64,000 nt of DNA, from contig JAHEJJ010000005.1 of the NCBI GenBank assembly GCA_024638915.1, forward strand, positions 670-64,669. Direction: 5' to 3'. A model generated the notes under the pieces. The model was given only the letters and a program-made list of their open reading frames with translations, was not told the DNA's origin and searched no databases. The position numbers and the translations under genes were made by a program. The DNA comes from Robiginitalea sp. (GTDB lineage Bacteria > Bacteroidota > Bacteroidia > Flavobacteriales > Flavobacteriaceae). Positions 35,739 to 42,840 of this stretch are shown piece by piece; the first letter of the stretch is position 1; each line of letters opens with the position of its first letter.

Positions 35739-35768
35739 TTTTTAATTAAATTCGCGTTTGATTTTGTT

Positions 35769-35776
35769 CAAAAATA
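35769..35776 (-). promoter_or_regulatory. Candidate -7 promoter element (TATTTTTG) for bcp
   Basis: The reverse complement of caaaaata is TATTTTTG. It lies 30 nt upstream of the bcp ATG. Confidence 0.4.
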
Positions 35777-35781
35777 ACAAA

Positions 35782-36441
35782 ATGACCAAAGCAGAAAAAG
35801 TAAAATTCATTATTGATACTCTGGAAGAGCTTTACCCAAAAGTTCCCATTCCCCTTGAGCATAAAGACCCGTTCACACTTCTGATCGCCGTTCTTTTGTC
35901 GGCTCAGAGTACAGATGTAAAAGTGAACCAGATCACCCCATTGCTTTTTCAAAGGGCACGCACACCATTCGAAATGGTAAAACTCAGTATAGAGGAAATC
36001 AGGGAAATCATAAAACCAGTCGGTTTATCGCCTTCAAAAGCCAAGGCGATTCATGGGTTATCGGAAATTCTGATCAAAAAGTACGACGGTGAGGTGCCCC
36101 GGGAGTTAGACTTGCTAGAGGAATTACCCGGAGTCGGTCATAAAACAGCGAGCGTAGTTGTTTCCCAGGCCTTTGGAATTAATGCATTTCCGGTCGACAC
36201 CCATATTCACAGACTTATGTATCGCTGGGGACTGAGCAATGGTAAAAATGTGGTTCAGACCGAAAGGGACGCCAAGAGATTATTTCCCGAAGAAAGCTGG
36301 AATAAACTACATCTGCAGATTATCTGGTATGGCAGACAATACTGCCCGGCCAGAGGCTGGGATCTAGAACGGGATATCATCACAAAAAAGGTGGGCAGGA
36401 AAACGGTTATTAGGAAATATTACAAAAAAAAGACCCGCTAA
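35782..36441 (+). CDS. Endonuclease III-family HhH-GPD DNA glycosylase lacking the Fe-S cluster cysteines
   Basis: HhH motif LPGVGHKTASVV with the catalytic Lys, and VDTHIHR with the catalytic Asp. The C-terminus has a single Cys and a Lys/Arg-rich tail where CX6CX2CX5C would normally be. The ATG at 35782 (MTKAEK) is preferred. Confidence 0.75.
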   Translation: MTKAEKVKFIIDTLEELYPKVPIPLEHKDPFTLLIAVLLSAQSTDVKVNQITPLLFQRARTPFEMVKLSIEEIREIIKPVGLSPSKAKAIHGLSEILIKKYDGEVPRELDLLEELPGVGHKTASVVVSQAFGINAFPVDTHIHRLMYRWGLSNGKNVVQTERDAKRLFPEESWNKLHLQIIWYGRQYCPARGWDLERDIITKKVGRKTVIRKYYKKKTR

Positions 36442-36451
36442 ATGCGGGTCT
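36431..36451. terminator. Bidirectional rho-independent terminator (nth-like gene and sigma module 1)
   Basis: Stem agacccgc / gcgggtct with loop taaat, which contains the nth-like stop codon. An A run lies upstream and a T-rich stretch downstream. Confidence 0.7.
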
Positions 36452-36460
36452 GTGATTTTC

Positions 36461-36604
36461 TTAGTTCAAATTTGTTTCAAATTTGAGATCCCCATAATTT
36501 GTGCAGTGAAAAGATCGGGAAAAATCCATCAGAAACCTTATCGTTTCAGGGCTAACCTTAAATGATCTTCCAACACTTTTTTCTTGAGAGTAAATTTTTT
36601 CCAT
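36461..36604 (-). CDS. Unannotated 47-aa ORF downstream of sigma factor 1 (paralogue of 37589-37732)
   Basis: Hand translation gives MEKIYSQEKSVGRSFKVSPETIRFLMDFSRSFHCTNYGDLKFETNLN. It has the same length, the same MEKIY start, the same NLN-stop end and the same 68-nt spacing from the sigma stop as the second copy. It is below the 60-aa cutoff of the ORF track. Confidence 0.6.
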   Translation of the reverse strand: MEKIYSQEKSVGRSFKVSPETIRFLMDFSRSFHCTNYGDLKFETNLN

Positions 36605-36672
36605 ATGATTATAGTATCGTTATGTTAAAATAACGCCACTATTATGGAAATATTGCTTGGTTTTAGAACGAA

Positions 36673-37257
36673 TTAAGAATTCGTCAGCACAATTTTATGT
36701 TTGTTGATAATCTTCCTAAGGTTGATCAGGGCATAGCGCATTCTTCCAAGGGCCGTATTAATGCTTACACCGGTATTTTCAGAGATTTCTTTAAAGCTCA
36801 TATCACGGTATATCCTCATCAGGAGCACCTCTTTCTGATCGTCGGGCAATTCGTCGATCAACAGGCTAAGATCGCTATCTATCTGTTCTTTGATCAATTG
36901 CTTTTCCGCATTGAGTTTATCGTCGCCGATGACTGAGAATATATTAAAATCGTCATTTCCTTCGAATTTAGGCATACGCTTGTTTCTGCGAAAATGATCT
37001 ATTATGAGGTTATGAGCAATACGCATTACCCAAGGCAAGAATTTACCTTCTTCGCTGTAGCGTCCTTTTTTTAAGGTTTTGATAACCTTTATAAATGTAT
37101 CTTGAAAAATATCCTCAGTGATATCACGATCCAGGACTTTGGAATAAATAAAACTGGTGATCCGCTGATTGTGTTTTTTGACAAGAATTTCAAGGGCGGC
37201 TTCGTCCCCGCTGATGTAGTCCCTTACAAGTATTGAATCATCTAATTGCGTTTCCAT
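36673..37257 (-). CDS. RNA polymerase sigma-70 family (ECF-type) sigma factor, copy 1
   Basis: 194 aa. Region 2 (ITEDIFQDTFIKVIKTL, WVMRIAHNLIIDHFRR) and region 4 HTH (MSFKEISENTGVSINTALGRMRYALINLR). Confidence 0.88.
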   Translation of the reverse strand: METQLDDSILVRDYISGDEAALEILVKKHNQRITSFIYSKVLDRDITEDIFQDTFIKVIKTLKKGRYSEEGKFLPWVMRIAHNLIIDHFRRNKRMPKFEGNDDFNIFSVIGDDKLNAEKQLIKEQIDSDLSLLIDELPDDQKEVLLMRIYRDMSFKEISENTGVSINTALGRMRYALINLRKIINKHKIVLTNS

Positions 37258-37518
37258 ATATAAAGTATTTTTTGGTTAATCGCTGCTCTTGTCTGAAAAG
37301 ATCAGCGTCATTAGAATTGGTTATTTCTCTTATTATTCTGAGTCATGGAATAAAAGTAGAGAAATAGCCTCCTGCCAAAAAAACTATGTTGTGTAACCCA
37401 CGATTTATGATGTCAAACACCGTTTTTAGGATTTCTGATACAATAAATCGGTTTATTTGGAGTTGAGCGGCCACTCAGCGCCAGGTTGAAGATCTTGCAA
37501 GATTATTCTGTCTGTAAC

Positions 37519-37552
37519 CAAAAATCCCTCCGATTCGCTAATCAGAGGGATC
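37519..37552 (-). terminator. Rho-independent terminator of sigma module 2
   Basis: On the minus strand: gatccctc-t-gatt-agcg-aatc-g-gagggat, followed by TTTTT. It lies 37 nt after the stop of the 47-aa ORF. Confidence 0.65.
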
Positions 37553-37588
37553 TGTTGATGTATATAAGAACTATATTATCTTGCGGTT

Positions 37589-37732
37589 TTAATTAAGATT
37601 ATTCTCGAAAGTGAACTTTTTATGTTTTACTATATTCAAAGACTGCGAGTATTTTAATAAAAACGATACCTTCTCAGGGCTGGTTTTAATAAGTTTACAG
37701 CGATCTTTATATTCCGGGTAGATTTTCTCCAT
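37589..37732 (-). CDS. Unannotated 47-aa ORF downstream of sigma factor 2 (paralogue of 36461-36604)
   Basis: Hand translation gives (M)MEKIYPEYKDRCKLIKTSPEKVSFLLKYSQSLNIVKHKKFTFENNLN. An extra in-frame ATG lies at 37735. About 19 of 47 positions are identical to copy 1 by eye. Confidence 0.6.
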   Translation of the reverse strand: MEKIYPEYKDRCKLIKTSPEKVSFLLKYSQSLNIVKHKKFTFENNLN

Positions 37733-37803
37733 CATGCTTTGTTGTTACCATAAATTAACGGAAGCAACAGCACAACCATTCGGATTAATCGACCTAAAAC
37801 CTA

Positions 37804-38385
37804 TTAATTCGTCAAAACTATATTATTCTTTTCGATGATTTTGCGCAAATTGATCAGGGCATAGCGCATACGCCCCAGGGCTGTGTTAATGCTAACACCC
37901 GTATTTTCAGATATTTCCTTAAAACTCATGTCGCGGTATATCCTCATCATCAGTACCTCTTTCTGATCATCGGGCAACTCCTCGATCAGCATAGTCAGAT
38001 CGCTATCGATCTGATCTTTGATCAGTTGTTTCTCGGCATTGAGCTTATCATCGCCCAAAACAGAAAAAATATTGAAATCTTCCGAGCCTTCGAAACGCGG
38101 CATTCTTTTGTTTCTTCGGAAATGGTCGATAATAAGGTTATGAGCAATCCGCATAACCCAGGGCAAGAACTTACCCTCCTCACTATAATTTCCTTTTTTC
38201 AGGGTTTTAATGACCTTGATAAAAGTATCCTGGAAGATATCTTCAGTGATATCCCTGTTCAATACCTTGGAATAAATAAAACTGCTGAGGCGTTGATTAT
38301 GTTTCAGGATCAGCTTCTCAAGCGCCATTTCGTCACCGCTGATATAATCTCTTACTAGAATAGAATCTTCGATCTGTAGTTCCAT
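37804..38385 (-). CDS. RNA polymerase sigma-70 family (ECF-type) sigma factor, copy 2
   Basis: Collinear with copy 1, with roughly two dozen substitutions over about 193 residues by eye. The start MELQIEDS at 38385 is preferred by homology to the ATG at 38391. Confidence 0.88.
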   Translation of the reverse strand: MELQIEDSILVRDYISGDEMALEKLILKHNQRLSSFIYSKVLNRDITEDIFQDTFIKVIKTLKKGNYSEEGKFLPWVMRIAHNLIIDHFRRNKRMPRFEGSEDFNIFSVLGDDKLNAEKQLIKDQIDSDLTMLIEELPDDQKEVLMMRIYRDMSFKEISENTGVSINTALGRMRYALINLRKIIEKNNIVLTN

Positions 38386-38507
38386 ACACATTACTTTTTT
38401 GGTTAAATAAGGGGCCCTTTCAAGAAGCAGGGACTTCAGCTATTTAGGTTAAATCACAAAAAAGTAATGGTCTATGTATAGGCGATCTGTTACGAATTAT
38501 TATAAAT

Positions 38508-38515
38508 CAAATATA
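38508..38515 (-). promoter_or_regulatory. Candidate -7 promoter element (TATATTTG) for sigma factor copy 2
   Basis: The reverse complement of caaatata is a perfect TAnnTTTG. It lies about 123 nt upstream of the ATG at 38385, which implies a long leader. Confidence 0.4.
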
Positions 38516-38607
38516 GAAAAAATATGAGTTGATAAAAAAACAATGTTGTGATTTGACGGTTTTTTGAGGTATAATAACACTTATTAGTTATTGAAAACCC
38601 CATGTTG

Positions 38608-38615
38608 TATCTTTG
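38608..38615 (+). promoter_or_regulatory. Candidate -7 promoter element (TATCTTTG) for uvrA
   Basis: Perfect TAnnTTTG match ending only 8 nt before the uvrA ATG at 38624, which implies a very short or absent leader. Confidence 0.45.
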
Positions 38616-38623
38616 CAAATTCC

Positions 38624-41413
38624 ATGAGTAAACCCATTTCCATTTCAGAGGCAGACCCCAAAGACAATATTATTATTAAGGGGGCTAAGCTACACAACCT
38701 GAAGAACATAGACGTTGTAATCCCACGTAACAAGTTGGTGGTGATCACAGGTTTATCGGGTTCGGGAAAGTCCACCCTGGCCTTCGATACCCTTTATGCC
38801 GAGGGTCAAAGACGCTATGTTGAGAGTTTGTCATCTTATGCCAGACAATTTTTGGGGAAACTCGACAAACCCAAGGTCGATTTTATAAAAGGGATCGCCC
38901 CGGCCATCGCTATCGAACAGAAAGTCAACTCCACCAACCCACGCTCCACGGTAGGTACTTCCACCGAGATATACGATTATTTAAAATTATTGTACGCGCG
39001 TATAGGTAAGACCTTTTCCCCGATTTCCGGAAAGCAGGTCAAGAAACACACCACCTCGGATGTTGTAAACCATTTAAAAGGATTCGAAGAGGGTACCCGG
39101 CTTCTGCTTCTGGCACCAATAGTTGTTCCCGAGGACAGGGATCCACAAAAGATATTGCAGGTTCTATCTAAACAAGGCTATGCCCGGATAAAATTCAAGA
39201 ATAGTATACATCGGGTGGATGAATCTCTGCCAGGTCTCGGAAGAACTTTTGAGCTGGTGGTAGACCGGATCGTGATGAAAGATGATGAAGATTTTTTCTT
39301 TCGCCTGGCTAATGCTATCGATACCGCTTTTTTTGAAGGCAAGGGCGAATGTATGATCGAAGAGGTGGAAAATGGGAACCGTCATATTTTTAGTACCAAG
39401 TTCGAGCTCGACGGTATGATCTTCCCCGATCCCAACGTACACCTGTTCAGCTTTAACAATCCTTATGGGGCCTGTCCAAAATGTGAGGGCTATGGCGATG
39501 TCATCGGTATCGACCAAAAGCTTGTAGTACCTAACACGGGATTGTCGGTATATGAAAATGCCATATTTCCCTGGCGCGGTGAAAGCATGAGCTGGTATCG
39601 GGATCAATTGGTGAACAGTGCCTATAAGTTCAACTTTCCCATCCATAAACCCTGGTTTAAGCTCAGCGAAGCCGAAAAAGAGCTCGTATGGTCGGGCAAT
39701 GAATATTTTATCGGCATCGATAACTTTTTTAAAAAACTGGAAGAGAAGAGCTACAAGATACAGAACCGGGTTATGCTCTCCAGATATAGGGGTAAGACCC
39801 GTTGTAGTTCCTGTAACGGAAGGCGTCTGAGAGAGGAGACCGACTACATTAAACTGGGTGGCAAGTCCATTTCAGACCTTGTAGAGCTTCCTATCGATAA
39901 GCTTATCAATTTTTTTGACACCCTTGAATTGAAGGCGCACGACAAAAAGATTTCTGGCCGGCTGCTCAAAGAAATCACTACCAGGCTGGGATTCCTGAAT
40001 AAGGTAGGATTGAGCTATCTGACGCTGAATAGGAAATCCAATAGCTTATCGGGTGGTGAAAGTCAGCGTATTAATCTGGCCACTTCATTGGGCAGCAGCC
40101 TGGTAGGCTCTATGTACATCCTAGACGAACCGAGCATTGGCTTACATCCCAAGGACACCGAAAGCCTGATAGGCGTGCTGAAATCACTCAGAGATCTTGG
40201 AAATACAGTGATTGTTGTTGAGCACGATGAAGATATCATGCGTGCCGCCGATGAGGTGATCGATATTGGTCCTGAGGCAGGCACCCACGGCGGAGAAGTG
40301 GTCGCTCATGGTAATATCGATATAGTTTTGAGTTCTTCCTCTCTAACCGCAGGATATCTCAATGGAAAGCTTAAAATTATAACACCAGAAGCAAGACGTA
40401 CATCTAAAAACTTCATCACTATCAAGGGAGCCAGGGAAAATAACCTCAAAAATATCGATGTGCTTTTTCCGCTCAATATGCTCACTGTGGTAACCGGTGT
40501 CTCAGGAAGTGGCAAAAGTACCCTTGTTAGAAAGCTTCTGTACCCCATCATACAAAAAGAGATCGGTGGTTATGGAGAACGTGCCGGTCAGTATACCGAA
40601 TTCGAAGGGAAATTCCAGGCGATAAAAAATGTGGAGTTCGTGGATCAAAACCCGATAGGACGTTCTTCCAGATCAAATCCCGTAACCTATATAAAGGCAT
40701 ATGATGACATCCGAAATCTATTTGCTACGCAACGATTGAGTAAGATAAGGGGTTACCAGGCGAAGCATTTTTCATTTAATGTAGATGGCGGACGCTGTGA
40801 GAAATGCAAAGGTGAAGGCGAGATTACCGTCGAGATGCAGTTTATGGCCGATGTGCATCTGGAATGTGATACTTGCAAGGGAAAACGCTTTAAAAAAGAA
40901 GTCCTGGAAGTAAGGTTCGAAGAAGTCAACATAGACGATGTTCTTAATATGACCATCGATAACGCCGTAGAGTTCTTCGAAAATACCAACCAGAAACGGA
41001 TCGTGGGAAAATTAAAATCCCTGCAAGATGTCGGTCTTGGTTATGTAACATTAGGACAGTCGTCTTCTACCCTCTCGGGAGGCGAAGCACAACGGATAAA
41101 ACTGGCTTCCTTTCTGCTAAAAGGGAACGACAAGGATAAAACGCTGTTCATTTTTGATGAACCCACCACAGGGTTACATTTTCACGATATCAATAAATTA
41201 CTCACGTCCTTCAATGCGCTAATCTCCAGGGGGCATTCGATAATTGTTATCGAACATAATATCGAGCTGATCAAATGCGCCGATTACATTATTGATCTCG
41301 GACCCGATGGTGGTGAAAAAGGTGGACAACTTATTGCCTCAGGGACACCGGAAGAACTGCTTAAATCCGAAGCATCGTATACCGCCAGATACTTGAGGGA
41401 AAAGCTCGATTAA
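38624..41413 (+). CDS. uvrA: Excinuclease ABC subunit A
   Basis: About 929 aa. Two ABC ATPase modules (GLSGSGKST and GVSGSGKST Walker A; two LSGGE signatures) and Zn-finger CxxC pairs. The track ORF starts at a TTG at 38591; the ATG at 38624 (MSKPISI) is preferred. Confidence 0.95.
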
Positions 41414-41583: not shown

Positions 41584-42840
41584 ATGAAAAGGTTAGTATT
41601 TTATTCCGTGATACTCCTGTTGGGCATCACCTATGTCCAGGCAGAAGTTGGAAAAGACAACTCAGCAACATATTTTAATAACTATGGGAAATCCTTCATT
41701 TTTGAAGAGAGCGGCACTACGTTTTCAGTGTATCCCGATGGTGAATTCGACTTTTACATCAATAACCGTCTCAATGCAGGCGCCTTTGTGAGTACAGGTT
41801 CGGCCAGTTTCACATTCAACTCTGGCTATAGCTACAACTCGTATGTTCAATATGATGATTACGGTGCCGTTATCCAGGTGGAAAATGTACCGATTTATTA
41901 TGATTATTACGGGCGGGTAAGCCAGATCGGTAATGTCAATATTTGGTATCGCAACAATCGCGTCAGACGTATAGGTGGTTTAAATGTTTATTATAACAAT
42001 AGAGGTTATTACGATTATTGTACAGGTTATGTCAATATATATAACAGACACTATGTTTACCGACCCTATCACCGATACTTTGTAAGACCTGTTGTTGGAT
42101 TTTGTAATGTATGGACAACACCCTATCGTAGGTATTATTACCCTACACGATATACCTATTACAGCCCATACTACCATAATTACAGGAGGTCCTATGTGCA
42201 AGTAGGCAGGCCTTACCGCCACTATAATAAAGGACACCACAGGTCACGTATTTACAGGAATGACCGTAGAGTAGCCGTCAGGAAGAACCATGGCAGAAAC
42301 GAATATGGCCATACCAGGGGTGAGGTTCGATATGCGAACAACCATAGAAACGGTACCAGGAATACTGTGCGAAAAAACAGTGCCGTAAGATCTTCCAGCG
42401 GGAACAGGAGCAGCCTGACCAGGTCTAAAGCTGTACGAAATTCAGACAATGGTAGGAATACTGTGCGCAGATCGGTGACCAATAGTGAGCGTCCCCAGAC
42501 AAGGGGTGCCTCGAGAACGATAAAGCGAAGTGATGCATCTCCTAAGGCGAGAAATATCGTCAAAAACAGCCGGGCTGATAGTCCGAAGAGACAGGTCACA
42601 TCGAGAAGCTCAAGGACTGTGGTCAAGCGCAGCACTAAGCCAGAGGGAAGAAGATCTTATGAAAGAAATACAAAATCGACTAAGACTTCAGTTGCGAGAT
42701 CTGGAAACCGGGAGGTTAAACGCAGTACAAGCATAGCACAAAGAAGGCCTTCCGATAGGAGCAAATCTAGTAGTGCTAAGAAAAGTTCAAGATCTAATAA
42801 GAAAGGAACTTATAGCCGAAGCAGCAGAACAGTGCGATAA
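41584..42840 (+). CDS. Secreted low-complexity protein: Tyr/Asn/Arg-rich N-terminal region plus Ser/Arg/Lys-rich polybasic tail
   Basis: 418 aa. Signal peptide MKRLVFYSVILLLGITYVQA. Repeated G-x-V-x-x-I-G-x-V/L-N-I/V-x-Y-x-N-N-R units. The C-terminal ~200 aa are almost entirely S/R/K/N/T, with internal repeats (GRNTVR twice, SSRTV twice, VKRST twice). An exact 14-nt repeat AGGAATACTGTGCG occurs at 42358 and 42454. Confidence 0.6.
   Translation: MKRLVFYSVILLLGITYVQAEVGKDNSATYFNNYGKSFIFEESGTTFSVYPDGEFDFYINNRLNAGAFVSTGSASFTFNSGYSYNSYVQYDDYGAVIQVENVPIYYDYYGRVSQIGNVNIWYRNNRVRRIGGLNVYYNNRGYYDYCTGYVNIYNRHYVYRPYHRYFVRPVVGFCNVWTTPYRRYYYPTRYTYYSPYYHNYRRSYVQVGRPYRHYNKGHHRSRIYRNDRRVAVRKNHGRNEYGHTRGEVRYANNHRNGTRNTVRKNSAVRSSSGNRSSLTRSKAVRNSDNGRNTVRRSVTNSERPQTRGASRTIKRSDASPKARNIVKNSRADSPKRQVTSRSSRTVVKRSTKPEGRRSYERNTKSTKTSVARSGNREVKRSTSIAQRRPSDRSKSSSAKKSSRSNKKGTYSRSSRTVR

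What the first reader, a model, noticed from the sequence alone, without database searches (positions are those of the whole stretch)
36461..38391. Tandem duplication of a complete ECF-type sigma factor transcription unit
Two minus-strand units lie head to tail between the nth-like gene and uvrA. Each has a long leader, a sigma-70 family factor of about 194 aa, a 68-nt spacer, a 47-aa ORF and its own hairpin terminator. The terminators are at 36431-36451 and 37519-37552. The sigma proteins differ at only about two dozen of roughly 193 aligned positions by my by-eye alignment. The DNA-recognition helices of region 2 and region 4 are essentially identical, so the two factors would be expected to read the same promoters. 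Keeping two near-identical sigma factors as separate, separately terminated units is not a standard housekeeping arrangement. It suggests either a recent duplication or two differently regulated inputs into one regulon.
Basis: seen in the sequence. Interest (0 to 1): 0.7.

Follow-up and report, generated by a model that had tools for sequence, protein, structure and literature searches.

The report
Ancient tandem sigma-factor duplicate, differently regulated
Two neighbouring copies of a stress-type sigma factor gene, each with its own tiny partner gene, are real, but they come from an old duplication shared by many marine Flavobacteriaceae genera; the proteins look interchangeable, while their control regions have diverged.

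Summary
Two minus-strand units lie head to tail between nth and uvrA. Each has an ECF-type sigma gene, a spacer of about 68 nt, a 47-aa ORF and a hairpin terminator.

"Recent duplication" is wrong. The copies are 88% identical in protein but only 77% in DNA. Synonymous sites are saturated, and no gene-conversion tract is visible. Both copies are under strong purifying selection (dN/dS about 0.01-0.06). The same tandem is present in 37 of 80 species-representative Flavobacteriaceae loci, including the complete Muriicola soli genome, where the sigma genes are annotated as ordinary sigma factors.

No residue distinguishes the two copy classes, and regions 2 and 4 are nearly invariant. The same promoter specificity is therefore expected.

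The control regions differ. The uvrA-side copy keeps a canonical Bacteroidetes promoter and a leader of about 106 nt. A covariation-supported helix in this leader buries the start codon. No Rfam family matches it. The nth-side copy lacks this leader. It has a conserved 21-bp-period direct repeat and a non-consensus -7 box.

The 47-aa ORF follows every copy, is protein-coding, and matches no known family.

Verdict: a real, old, ordinary paralogue pair showing regulatory subfunctionalisation. Interest is moderate.

The parts
37804..38385 (-). sigB, the uvrA-proximal ECF-type sigma factor. It is 193 aa from the ATG at 38385. The ORF listing extends it to the ATG at 38391, which lies inside the conserved leader motif AAGUAAUG.
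   Evidence: dN/dS against the closest relative is 0.016.
38380..38485 (-). Conserved 5' leader RNA of sigB. GCCUAUAC lies at 38476-38483, AUUACUUUUUU at 38458-38468, the variable hairpin P2 at about 38414-38433, and AAAAAAGUAAU at 38390-38400. The start codon is at 38383-38385. Helices P1a and P1b pair the 5' motifs with the A-rich initiation region and the AUG.
   Evidence: Covariance model R1 hits here at 85.8 bits (E 1.7e-14). It is the only hit in the 64-kb window. Covariation is shown, per-sequence folds, low accessibility, and the absence of an Rfam match.
38508..38515 (-). Canonical Bacteroidetes -7 box TATATTTG of the sigB promoter. The inferred transcription start is near 38503, which gives a 5'UTR of about 118 nt.
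   Evidence: 41 of 42 B copies have TAnnTTTG. The consensus comes from PMC9723704.
38536..38549 (-). ACAACATTGTTTTT, a retained half of the upstream direct-repeat element next to the T-rich -33 region of sigB.
   Evidence: this motif occurs only twice in the window, once upstream of each sigma gene..
37589..37732 (-). Small ORF B, 47 aa from MEKIYPEY... The listed ORF starts one Met earlier, at 37735.
37522..37553 (-). Hairpin terminator of the B unit: a 14-bp stem, a 4-nt loop and a U-rich tail.
37387..37417 (-). Direct repeat upstream of sigA: TTTGACATCA at 37408-37417 and TTACACAACA at 37387-37396, with a 21-bp period, abutting the T-rich -33 region. It is a candidate transcription-factor site.
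   Evidence: (present in 42 of 43 A copies).
37351..37358 (-). Non-consensus -7-like box TACTTTTA of the sigA promoter. It sits at the position of TATATTTG in B and single-copy genes.
   Evidence: 0 of 43 A copies have TAnnTTTG and 31 of 43 have TAnnTTTA.
37258..37350 (-). sigA leader. It lacks the GCCUAUA, UUACUUU and AAAGUAAU motifs, and its initiation region is predicted to be open.
   Evidence: no R1 hit; unpaired probability 0.76, against 0.23 for sigB.
36673..37257 (-). sigA, the nth-proximal ECF-type sigma factor (194 aa). It is the slower-evolving copy.
36461..36604 (-). Small ORF A (47 aa).
36431..36451 (.). Bidirectional hairpin terminator shared by the A unit and the convergent nth gene.
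35758..36441 (+). Flank: nth-like endonuclease III gene, a conserved synteny anchor.
38591..41413 (+). Flank: uvrA, divergent from sigB. The likely true start is the ATG near 38627. It is a conserved synteny anchor.

Best explanation
This is an ancient tandem duplication of a module made of a promoter, a leader, a sigma gene, a 47-aa ORF and a terminator. The duplication arose in an ancestor of a large Flavobacteriaceae clade that includes Maribacter, Arenibacter, Eudoraea, Muriicola, Zeaxanthinibacter, Ulvibacterium, Spongiimicrobium and the window's own lineage. Both copies have been kept under strong purifying selection. Shown: both sigma proteins are intact ECF-type (sigma2 plus sigma4) factors, their DNA-recognition regions are practically invariant, and no residue distinguishes the two classes. 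Inferred from that: they bind the same promoters and feed one regulon. Shown: the copies differ in their cis-regulatory DNA. The uvrA-side copy (B) keeps the state seen in single-copy genera. That state is a canonical TAnnTTTG promoter plus a long leader whose 5' part base-pairs with the A-rich initiation region and the AUG. Inferred: this structure represses translation until some factor opens it. The nth-side copy (A) has lost that leader, and its initiation region is predicted to be open. It has a non-consensus -7 box preceded by a conserved direct repeat, TTTKACAWCA-N11-TTTKACAWCA. Inferred: transcription of A depends on an activator that binds this repeat. The closest single-copy genera, and the window's B copy in part, carry both the repeat and the leader. 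The pattern therefore fits partition of an ancestral control region after duplication (subfunctionalisation). The 47-aa protein that follows every copy is a real, conserved, uncharacterised protein. Inferred, weakly: it is a stoichiometric partner or regulator of its sigma factor.
For: Age and selection. There are 84 synonymous and 23 non-synonymous codon differences, evenly spread, and NG86 dS is undefined because of saturation. Against the nearest relative, dN/dS is 0.010 for A and 0.016 for B. Across eight other ortholog pairs (four per copy) with a measurable dS, dN/dS is 0.009-0.036 for A and 0.022-0.059 for B.

Distribution. Of 80 species loci, 37 have two copies, 36 have one copy with uvrA adjacent, and 7 cannot be scored. 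The tandem is present in the complete genome of Muriicola soli and in three independent metagenome contigs. On a UvrA+Nth proxy tree the two-copy taxa form one large clade.

Same specificity. No column is at least 80% conserved in both classes yet different between them. Mean column conservation in regions 2.2-2.4 and 4 is 0.90-0.98 in all classes.

Cis elements. Full leader: 0 of 43 A copies, 36 of 42 B copies, 33 of 40 single-copy genes. Direct repeat: 42 of 43 A copies, 3 of 42 B copies. Canonical -7 box: 0 of 43 A copies, 41 of 42 B copies.

Leader structure. On a plain MAFFT alignment 87% of cells are paired, against about 50% when the partners are slid. Thirteen pairs show changes on both sides, and 0 of 500 shuffles reach the observed values. 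The covariance model hits one site per locus, always upstream of a B or single-copy gene. On the model-fitted alignment 88.7% of cells are paired and covariation is 0.21, against 0.08 in shuffles.

Accessibility. The unpaired probability of positions -20 to +6 is 0.65 for A, 0.28 for B and 0.28 for single-copy genes (p = 7e-15).

Small ORF. It follows all 129 sigma units examined (129/129), and 111 of the 129 are exactly 47 aa. Substitutions follow the codon-position pattern 3 > 1 > 2, and dN/dS is 0.02-0.37.

Lead from the literature. A F. psychrophilum ECF01-type sigma gene of the same length has a mapped 80-nt 5'UTR with the same order of motifs, and it is induced by high osmotic pressure (PMC9723704).
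Against: There are no expression, binding or translation data for this organism, so the promoter, transcription start, activator site and translational repression are all inferred from sequence. P1b is largely invariant, so most covariation comes from P1a and P2. The model-fitted alignment leans towards the structure. In the protein NJ tree the window's A and B copies are sisters, and the B copies are not monophyletic. Independent duplication or an old gene conversion in this lineage is therefore not formally excluded; the argument for a single event rests on the shared A-type and B-type upstream regions. In the proxy species tree the single-copy Flagellimonas group and Cellulophaga nest inside the two-copy clade, so their single copy may result from secondary loss or recombinational collapse and need not be ancestral. 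The role of the small protein is untested; its model is of low-to-moderate confidence (pLDDT 74) and has no structural match. A sequence-only profile matches the F. psychrophilum UTR only weakly, and orthology of that gene was not verified by protein alignment.
Confidence: 0.72

Rival explanations
1. A recent duplication, or an assembly expansion artefact, that selection has not yet sorted out.
For: The proteins are 88% identical, and the A and B copies of the window cluster together in the protein NJ tree.
Against: DNA identity is only 77%, synonymous sites are saturated, and no tract of identical sequence is visible. The flanks and leaders are unalignable apart from short motifs. The arrangement is present in 37 species-level genomes, a complete genome and three independent assemblies. 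The orthologous B copies of the window and its nearest relative are 98.5% identical in protein with dS 0.83.
Confidence: 0.02
2. Neofunctionalisation: copy B has acquired a different promoter specificity or a different partner, so that the two factors run different regulons.
For: B copies evolve about twice as fast as A copies and sit on long branches. The differences concentrate in region 2.1, the linker and the termini, which could affect partner binding. The small ORFs are only 40% identical.
Against: No position is conserved within each class yet different between classes. The -10 and -35 recognition regions are near-invariant in the A, B and single-copy classes. The extra change in B looks like relaxed constraint, not a directional shift.
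Confidence: 0.1
3. Simple redundancy or dosage: two equivalent copies are kept only to raise the sigma level, and the upstream differences have no functional meaning.
For: The two proteins appear interchangeable, and both are under purifying selection.
Against: The upstream differences are class-specific and conserved across about 40 genomes from many genera: the direct repeat in 42 of 43 A copies, and the leader in 36 of 42 B copies but 0 of 43 A copies. Neutral drift would not give this. The leader shows compensatory changes.
Confidence: 0.12
4. The sigB leader is an RNA thermometer, as in E. coli rpoH, making copy B the heat-responsive input.
For: An AU-rich helix covers the start codon of a stress-type sigma mRNA. 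The rpoH precedent is own knowledge.
Against: In silico the initiation region of B and single-copy leaders stays closed from 4 to 55 C: unpaired probability rises only from 0.25 to 0.34, and from 0.20 to 0.24 for the window's copy. The only expression clue from a possible ortholog is induction by osmotic pressure and nutrient limitation, measured at the mRNA level.
Confidence: 0.15

Closest known systems
RpoE/AlgU-like ECF sigma factors (groups ECF01/02)
   Same: A two-domain sigma2-sigma4 protein of about 190 aa. The best solved-structure matches are P. aeruginosa AlgU (6in7_B, deposited as sigma-H factor) and E. coli sigma-E. A F. psychrophilum sigma gene that may be the ortholog was assigned to ECF01 by ECFfinder.
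   Different: There is no RseA/MucA-type membrane anti-sigma gene next to it. The downstream gene is a 47-aa soluble protein with no anti-sigma domain. No ECF-type autoregulated promoter (AAC...CGT or GGAACTT...TCAAA) is visible upstream; the promoters look like those of the primary sigma factor. The protein is unusually conserved for an ECF factor, at 71-90% identity across the family.
Paralogous ECF pairs that share one regulon, e.g. EcfG1/EcfG2 of Sphingopyxis granuli (PMC7083833, seen)
   Same: Two paralogous ECF factors are kept in one genome and appear to feed one response through different regulation.
   Different: Here the pair is a strict tandem repeat of a whole transcription unit including a small partner ORF. 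The divergence is seen in promoter and leader DNA, and no anti-sigma or anti-anti-sigma partners are known. Nothing has been tested experimentally.
Start-codon-sequestering leaders of sigma mRNAs (E. coli rpoH thermosensor, rpoS leader; own knowledge)
   Same: A long 5' region base-pairs with the translation initiation region of a stress sigma mRNA.
   Different: The sequence and fold are different, and there is no Rfam match. It pairs with an A-rich, Shine-Dalgarno-less Bacteroidetes initiation region. It is predicted not to melt at physiological temperature. The opening factor is unknown.
Duplication-degeneration-complementation model of subfunctionalisation (Force et al. 1999; own knowledge)
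   Same: The closest single-copy genera carry both the direct repeat and the leader, while the duplicates each keep mainly one of them.
   Different: The polarity is uncertain, because some single-copy genera nest inside the two-copy clade on the proxy tree. The window's B copy still keeps part of the repeat.

Membership tests
ECF (group 4) sigma-70 family | Has sigma region 2 and region 4 only; lacks regions 1.1 and 3 | tested here: met
   Pfam Sigma70_r2 (E 9e-15 and 9e-14) and Sigma70_r4_2 or r4 in proteins of 193-194 aa. PF07638 Sigma70_ECF and TIGR02937 score above their cut-offs.
ECF (group 4) sigma-70 family | Co-transcribed cognate anti-sigma factor | tested here: inconclusive
   The only co-oriented downstream gene is a 47-aa ORF with no Pfam or NCBIfam hit and no structural match. 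It follows every sigma copy, which fits a partner role but does not show one.
ECF (group 4) sigma-70 family | Autoregulation from an ECF-type promoter upstream of its own gene | tested here: not met
   The conserved upstream elements are a TAnnTTTG or TAnnTTTA -7 box with a T-rich -33 region, of the primary-sigma type. No conserved AAC/CGT-type pair at ECF spacing is present.
RpoE-RseA / AlgU-MucA type system (ECF01/02) | Sigma protein closest to RpoE/AlgU | tested here: met
   Best PDB sequence matches are 6in7_B (AlgU) at E 8.5e-15 and 1or7_A (sigma-E) at E 2.5e-11. The proteins fall below the cut-off of every NCBIfam equivalog model.
RpoE-RseA / AlgU-MucA type system (ECF01/02) | Adjacent single-pass membrane anti-sigma factor with an N-terminal anti-sigma domain | tested here: not met
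   There is no such ORF between uvrA and nth in the window or in any of the fetched loci that span uvrA to nth.
Known cis-regulatory RNA families (Rfam 15) | Match to a curated covariance model | tested here: not met
   No match at the gathering threshold in 36300-38700. The only sub-threshold matches lie on terminator A.
RNA thermometer | The initiation region is sequestered at low temperature and opens within the physiological range | tested here: inconclusive
   Sequestration is met. Predicted opening between 4 and 55 C is negligible. This is in silico only.
Riboswitch | Conserved unpaired nucleotides that form a ligand pocket in junctions or loops | tested here: not met
   The conserved nucleotides lie in or next to helix P1 and in UUUAACC. 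The interior, including P2, is variable in sequence and length.

The most novel reading that the evidence does not exclude
The module may be an undescribed way of controlling an ECF-type sigma factor that is nearly universal in Flavobacteriaceae. In this reading the 47-aa protein is a minimal, soluble anti-sigma or co-factor of a new type. The start-codon-sequestering leader is a new class of cis-regulatory RNA opened by a trans-acting factor. The tandem paralogues then form a two-input switch, one transcriptional through the direct-repeat activator and one translational through the leader, onto a single regulon.
Probability: 0.25. Interest if true: 0.6.

Novelty: new member of a known kind. 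Interest (0 to 1): 0.4.

Why it matters
As flagged, a duplicated sigma unit is an ordinary, old and widely shared paralogue pair, so it does not signal a recent event or an anomaly. It is a clean natural example of duplicates with near-identical proteins whose control regions have been partitioned, replicated across about 40 genomes. It also brings up two undescribed elements attached to one of the most conserved alternative sigma factors of marine Flavobacteriaceae. One is a 47-aa protein family with 1602 database hits, all named 'hypothetical protein' where a name is given. The other is a structured leader that hides the start codon in a phylum that initiates translation without Shine-Dalgarno pairing. 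Both can be tested directly in cultured species such as Muriicola soli or Maribacter.

Tried and rejected
RNAalifold on a broad, gappy MAFFT alignment of 69 leaders returned no structure. I replaced it with a narrower alignment, an explicit structure and a covariance model.

The Rfam scan gave only sub-threshold hits on a terminator.

Pfam and NCBIfam gave nothing for the small ORFs. The AlphaFold model of the small protein (pLDDT 74; one helix and a beta-hairpin) had no Foldseek match in the PDB with E < 1.

Literature searches for this sigma factor's genomic context found nothing specific. The ECF reclassification paper has no supplementary files held as text.

I looked for gene-conversion tracts between A and B and found none; the differences are evenly spread.

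The thermometer idea was not supported in silico.

I considered reading the direct repeat as an ECF -35/-10 pair and rejected it, because the spacing to the next conserved element is about 29 nt (reading).

A sequence-only nhmmer profile of the leader matches the F. psychrophilum UTR only weakly, at 1.1 bits. That link therefore stays a lead.

One DNA search pattern was rejected for its syntax.
Full report
**Observation.** Four minus-strand ORFs lie between the nth-like gene (35758-36441, +) and uvrA (38591-41413, +). They are sigB 37804-38391, small ORF B 37589-37735, sigA 36673-37257 and small ORF A 36461-36604.
- The sigma proteins are identical at 170 of 193 aligned positions.
- The small ORFs are 40% identical.
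- Both sigma proteins carry Sigma70_r2 and Sigma70_r4_2 domains and pass the ECF models.
- The spacers between each sigma gene and its small ORF are 68 nt.
- Terminator A (36431-36451) is a bidirectional hairpin shared with nth.
- Terminator B is a 14-bp stem at 37522-37553.
- Comparison with orthologs shows that the ATG at 38391 lies inside a conserved leader motif. The homologous start of sigB is the ATG at 38385.

**Not an artefact and not recent.**
- At the DNA level the two units align only over the coding regions, and the sigma genes are 77% identical.
- Of 193 aligned codons, 86 are identical, 84 differ synonymously and 23 differ non-synonymously. The differences are spread evenly, with no long identical tract, and Nei-Gojobori dS is undefined because of saturation.
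- The same tandem is found in three independent metagenome assemblies, in two MAGs whose A copy is 97% identical, and in the complete genome of Muriicola soli.
- Against the nearest relative, dN/dS is 0.010 for A (dS 1.2) and 0.016 for B (dS 0.83).
- Across eight other ortholog pairs (four per copy) with a measurable dS, dN/dS is 0.009-0.036 for A and 0.022-0.059 for B.

Both genes are therefore functional and strongly constrained. B is about twice as relaxed as A.

**Distribution.** I scanned one genome per species and surveyed the hits with tblastn.
- The order uvrA, sigma, small ORF, nth, bcp is conserved across Flavobacteriaceae.
- 37 of 80 loci carry two tandem units. These include Maribacter, Arenibacter, Eudoraea, Zeaxanthinibacter, Spongiimicrobium and Ulvibacterium. 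Muriicola soli, fetched separately, also carries the tandem.
- 36 loci carry one unit directly beside uvrA. These include Flagellimonas/Muricauda, Cellulophaga, Croceivirga, Robertkochia, Kordia, Zhouia, Aquimarina, Winogradskyella and Aequorivita.
- 7 loci lack a uvrA match and cannot be scored: six lie on contigs cut short upstream, and one (L055) appears rearranged.
- Public annotation calls these genes simply 'RNA polymerase sigma factor'.
- On a UvrA+Nth proxy tree the two-copy taxa form one large clade. The Flagellimonas group and Cellulophaga nest inside it.

**Are the proteins different?** An alignment of 40 A, 40 B and 39 single-copy proteins has no column that is at least 80% conserved in both A and B yet different between them.
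- Mean conservation in regions 2.2-2.4 is 0.96 for A, 0.90 for B and 0.92 for single-copy genes. In region 4 it is 0.98, 0.90 and 0.91.
- In the window the only differences inside these regions are R66N and L147M.
- The protein tree gives short branches to A and single-copy genes and long branches to B. The window's two copies come out as sisters.

Since no residue is diagnostic of B, I read this as lineage-specific relaxation of B, which is slow in the window's lineage. I do not read it as a separate duplication, although old gene conversion cannot be excluded. The expected consequence is one promoter specificity. This is an inference.

**What differs is the control DNA**.
- B copies and single-copy genes share a canonical Bacteroidetes -7 box, TAnnTTTG, in 41 of 42 B copies. 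The consensus is as given in PMC9723704.
- They also share a long leader with three nearly invariant motifs: GCCUAUA, UUACUUU and AAAGUAAU just before the AUG. All three are present in 36 of 42 B copies and 33 of 40 single-copy genes, but in 0 of 43 A copies.
- A copies have a direct repeat, TTTKACAWCA-N11-TTTKACAWCA, in 42 of 43 cases. It abuts a T-rich -33 region and a TAnnTTTA box. No A copy has the canonical box.
- The repeat also occurs in the single-copy Flagellimonas, Cellulophaga and Croceivirga group and, in part, upstream of the window's B copy.
- ACAACATWGTTTTT occurs exactly twice in the 64-kb window, once before each sigma gene.

**The leader is a structured RNA.**
- Single-sequence folds of nearly all B and single-copy leaders pair CCUAUAC with GUAUGG, which contains the start codon. 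They also pair AUUACUUUUUU with AAAAAAGUAAU. These helices enclose a hairpin of variable sequence.
- On a MAFFT alignment that was not fitted to any structure, 87.2% of cells pair, against 46-53% when the partners are slid.
- Thirteen of 25 pairs show changes on both sides, and no shuffle out of 500 reaches the observed values. Pair 10-111, for example, is CG 16, GU 5, GC 4 and AU 3.
- A covariance model built from this alignment finds exactly one forward-strand site at E <= 0.11 in each of 69 of the 72 sources searched; L055, L073 and L079 give no hit, and L026 has one further marginal forward hit (E 0.93) upstream of its A copy. Every one of these sites lies upstream of a B or single-copy sigma gene. 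In the window it hits only 38380-38485 (85.8 bits), with nothing before sigA and nothing elsewhere.
- On the model's own alignment of 65 leaders, 88.7% of cells pair and covariation is 0.21, against 0.08 in shuffles. That alignment leans towards the structure.
- Rfam has no match.
- The predicted unpaired probability of positions -20 to +6 is 0.28 for B, 0.28 for single-copy genes and 0.65 for A. In the window it is 0.23 for B and 0.76 for A.
- Bacteroidetes do not rely on Shine-Dalgarno pairing (PMC9723704). Burying the A-rich region and the AUG should therefore repress translation. This is an inference.
- The structure is predicted to stay closed from 4 to 55 C, so a simple thermometer is unlikely and some factor must open it.

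**A lead from the literature.** In F. psychrophilum the ECF01-type sigma gene THC0290_1868 is 585 nt long and is listed without an anti-sigma gene. Its mRNA rises under high osmotic pressure and nutrient limitation. It has an experimentally mapped 80-nt 5'UTR reading GGCUUAUAC...AAUACUUUAG...hairpin...CUAAAAGUAUU, with a published fold that pairs the last two motifs (PMC9723704, Supplementary Information and Table S7). The order of motifs is the same as here. A sequence-only profile matches it only weakly, and I did not confirm orthology.

**The small ORF.**
- A 47-aa ORF with the consensus MEKIYS...ETIxFLLxYSKSL...FExxLN-stop follows every sigma copy examined, in 129 of 129 units. 111 of the 129 are exactly 47 aa. 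In 121 of the 129 units the spacer is 50-79 nt.
- Substitutions follow the coding pattern, with mean pairwise differences of 0.38, 0.25 and 0.53-0.60 at codon positions 1, 2 and 3. dN/dS is 0.02-0.37.
- A profile search finds 1602 relatives, all unnamed or called 'hypothetical protein', with no Pfam domain.
- The predicted fold is a disordered N-terminus, one helix and a beta-hairpin (pLDDT 74). It has no structural match in the PDB.
- Gene callers often skip it.
- Both copies have been retained in every two-copy genome. This suggests a function coupled to its own sigma gene. An anti-sigma or co-factor role is possible but untested.

**Comparison with known systems.** The sigma proteins are ECF-type and closest to RpoE and AlgU. 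The system does not qualify as an RpoE-RseA type module, because there is no membrane anti-sigma gene and no ECF-type autoregulated promoter. In function it most resembles paralogous ECF pairs that feed one response, such as EcfG1/EcfG2 (PMC7083833), and sigma mRNAs controlled by start-site-sequestering leaders (rpoH and rpoS; own knowledge). The evolutionary pattern fits duplication-degeneration-complementation (own knowledge), with the polarity caveat.

**Verdict.** The added value lies in the cleanly partitioned control regions, an undescribed structured leader and an undescribed 47-aa protein family. Interest is 0.4. It is a new member of a known kind.

Noticed in passing
window 36461-36604 (small ORF A), compared with L084, L013/L020, L031/L041 and L012/L025: Small ORF A shows lower synonymous divergence than the sigma gene beside it in all four pairs tested, markedly so in three. 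For the window against L084, dS is 0.21 for the small ORF and 1.20 for sigA. For L020 against L013 it is 0.33 and 1.69. In three of the four pairs small ORF B does not show this (in L020/L013 its dS, 1.19, barely exceeds sigB's 1.12). Some constraint at the nucleotide level may act here, perhaps because of the convergent nth 3' end and the shared terminator.
   Followed up: partly
window 38476-38483 (-) and the same position in the B and single-copy leaders of all loci: GCCUAUA, or more loosely GCnUAU, at the 5' end of the leader is almost invariant. This holds even in distant genera, where it lies outside the predicted helix. No explanation was found; it could be a protein or ribosome contact.
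   Followed up: no
window 38385-38391 and 38591-38627: The longest-ORF starts are probably wrong. The ATG at 38391 for sigB lies inside the conserved leader motif, and the homologous start is at 38385. The longest uvrA ORF starts at the TTG at 38591, but the conserved N-terminus MSKPISI begins at an ATG near 38627.
   Followed up: partly
L001, L084, L085, L087 (small ORF after the A copy): The gene calls in public assemblies omit the 47-aa ORF after sigA in several genomes and include it in others. The family is therefore annotated inconsistently.
   Followed up: yes
window 41584-42840 (+): A 418-aa ORF has a signal-peptide-like N-terminus, a Tyr/Asn-rich middle section and an extremely Arg/Ser/Lys-rich C-terminal half. 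Its composition is unusual, and I did not examine it.
   Followed up: no
window 36431-36451: A single GC-rich hairpin with T-runs on both strands appears to terminate both the sigA unit and the convergent nth gene. The nth stop codon lies inside the hairpin.
   Followed up: partly
L016 3720-3856 and L040 3697-3839 (Zeaxanthinibacter B leaders); L046 4882-5006: These leaders carry insertions of about 20-40 nt inside the P2 region but keep the outer helices. The interior of the leader therefore tolerates large changes in length.
   Followed up: no
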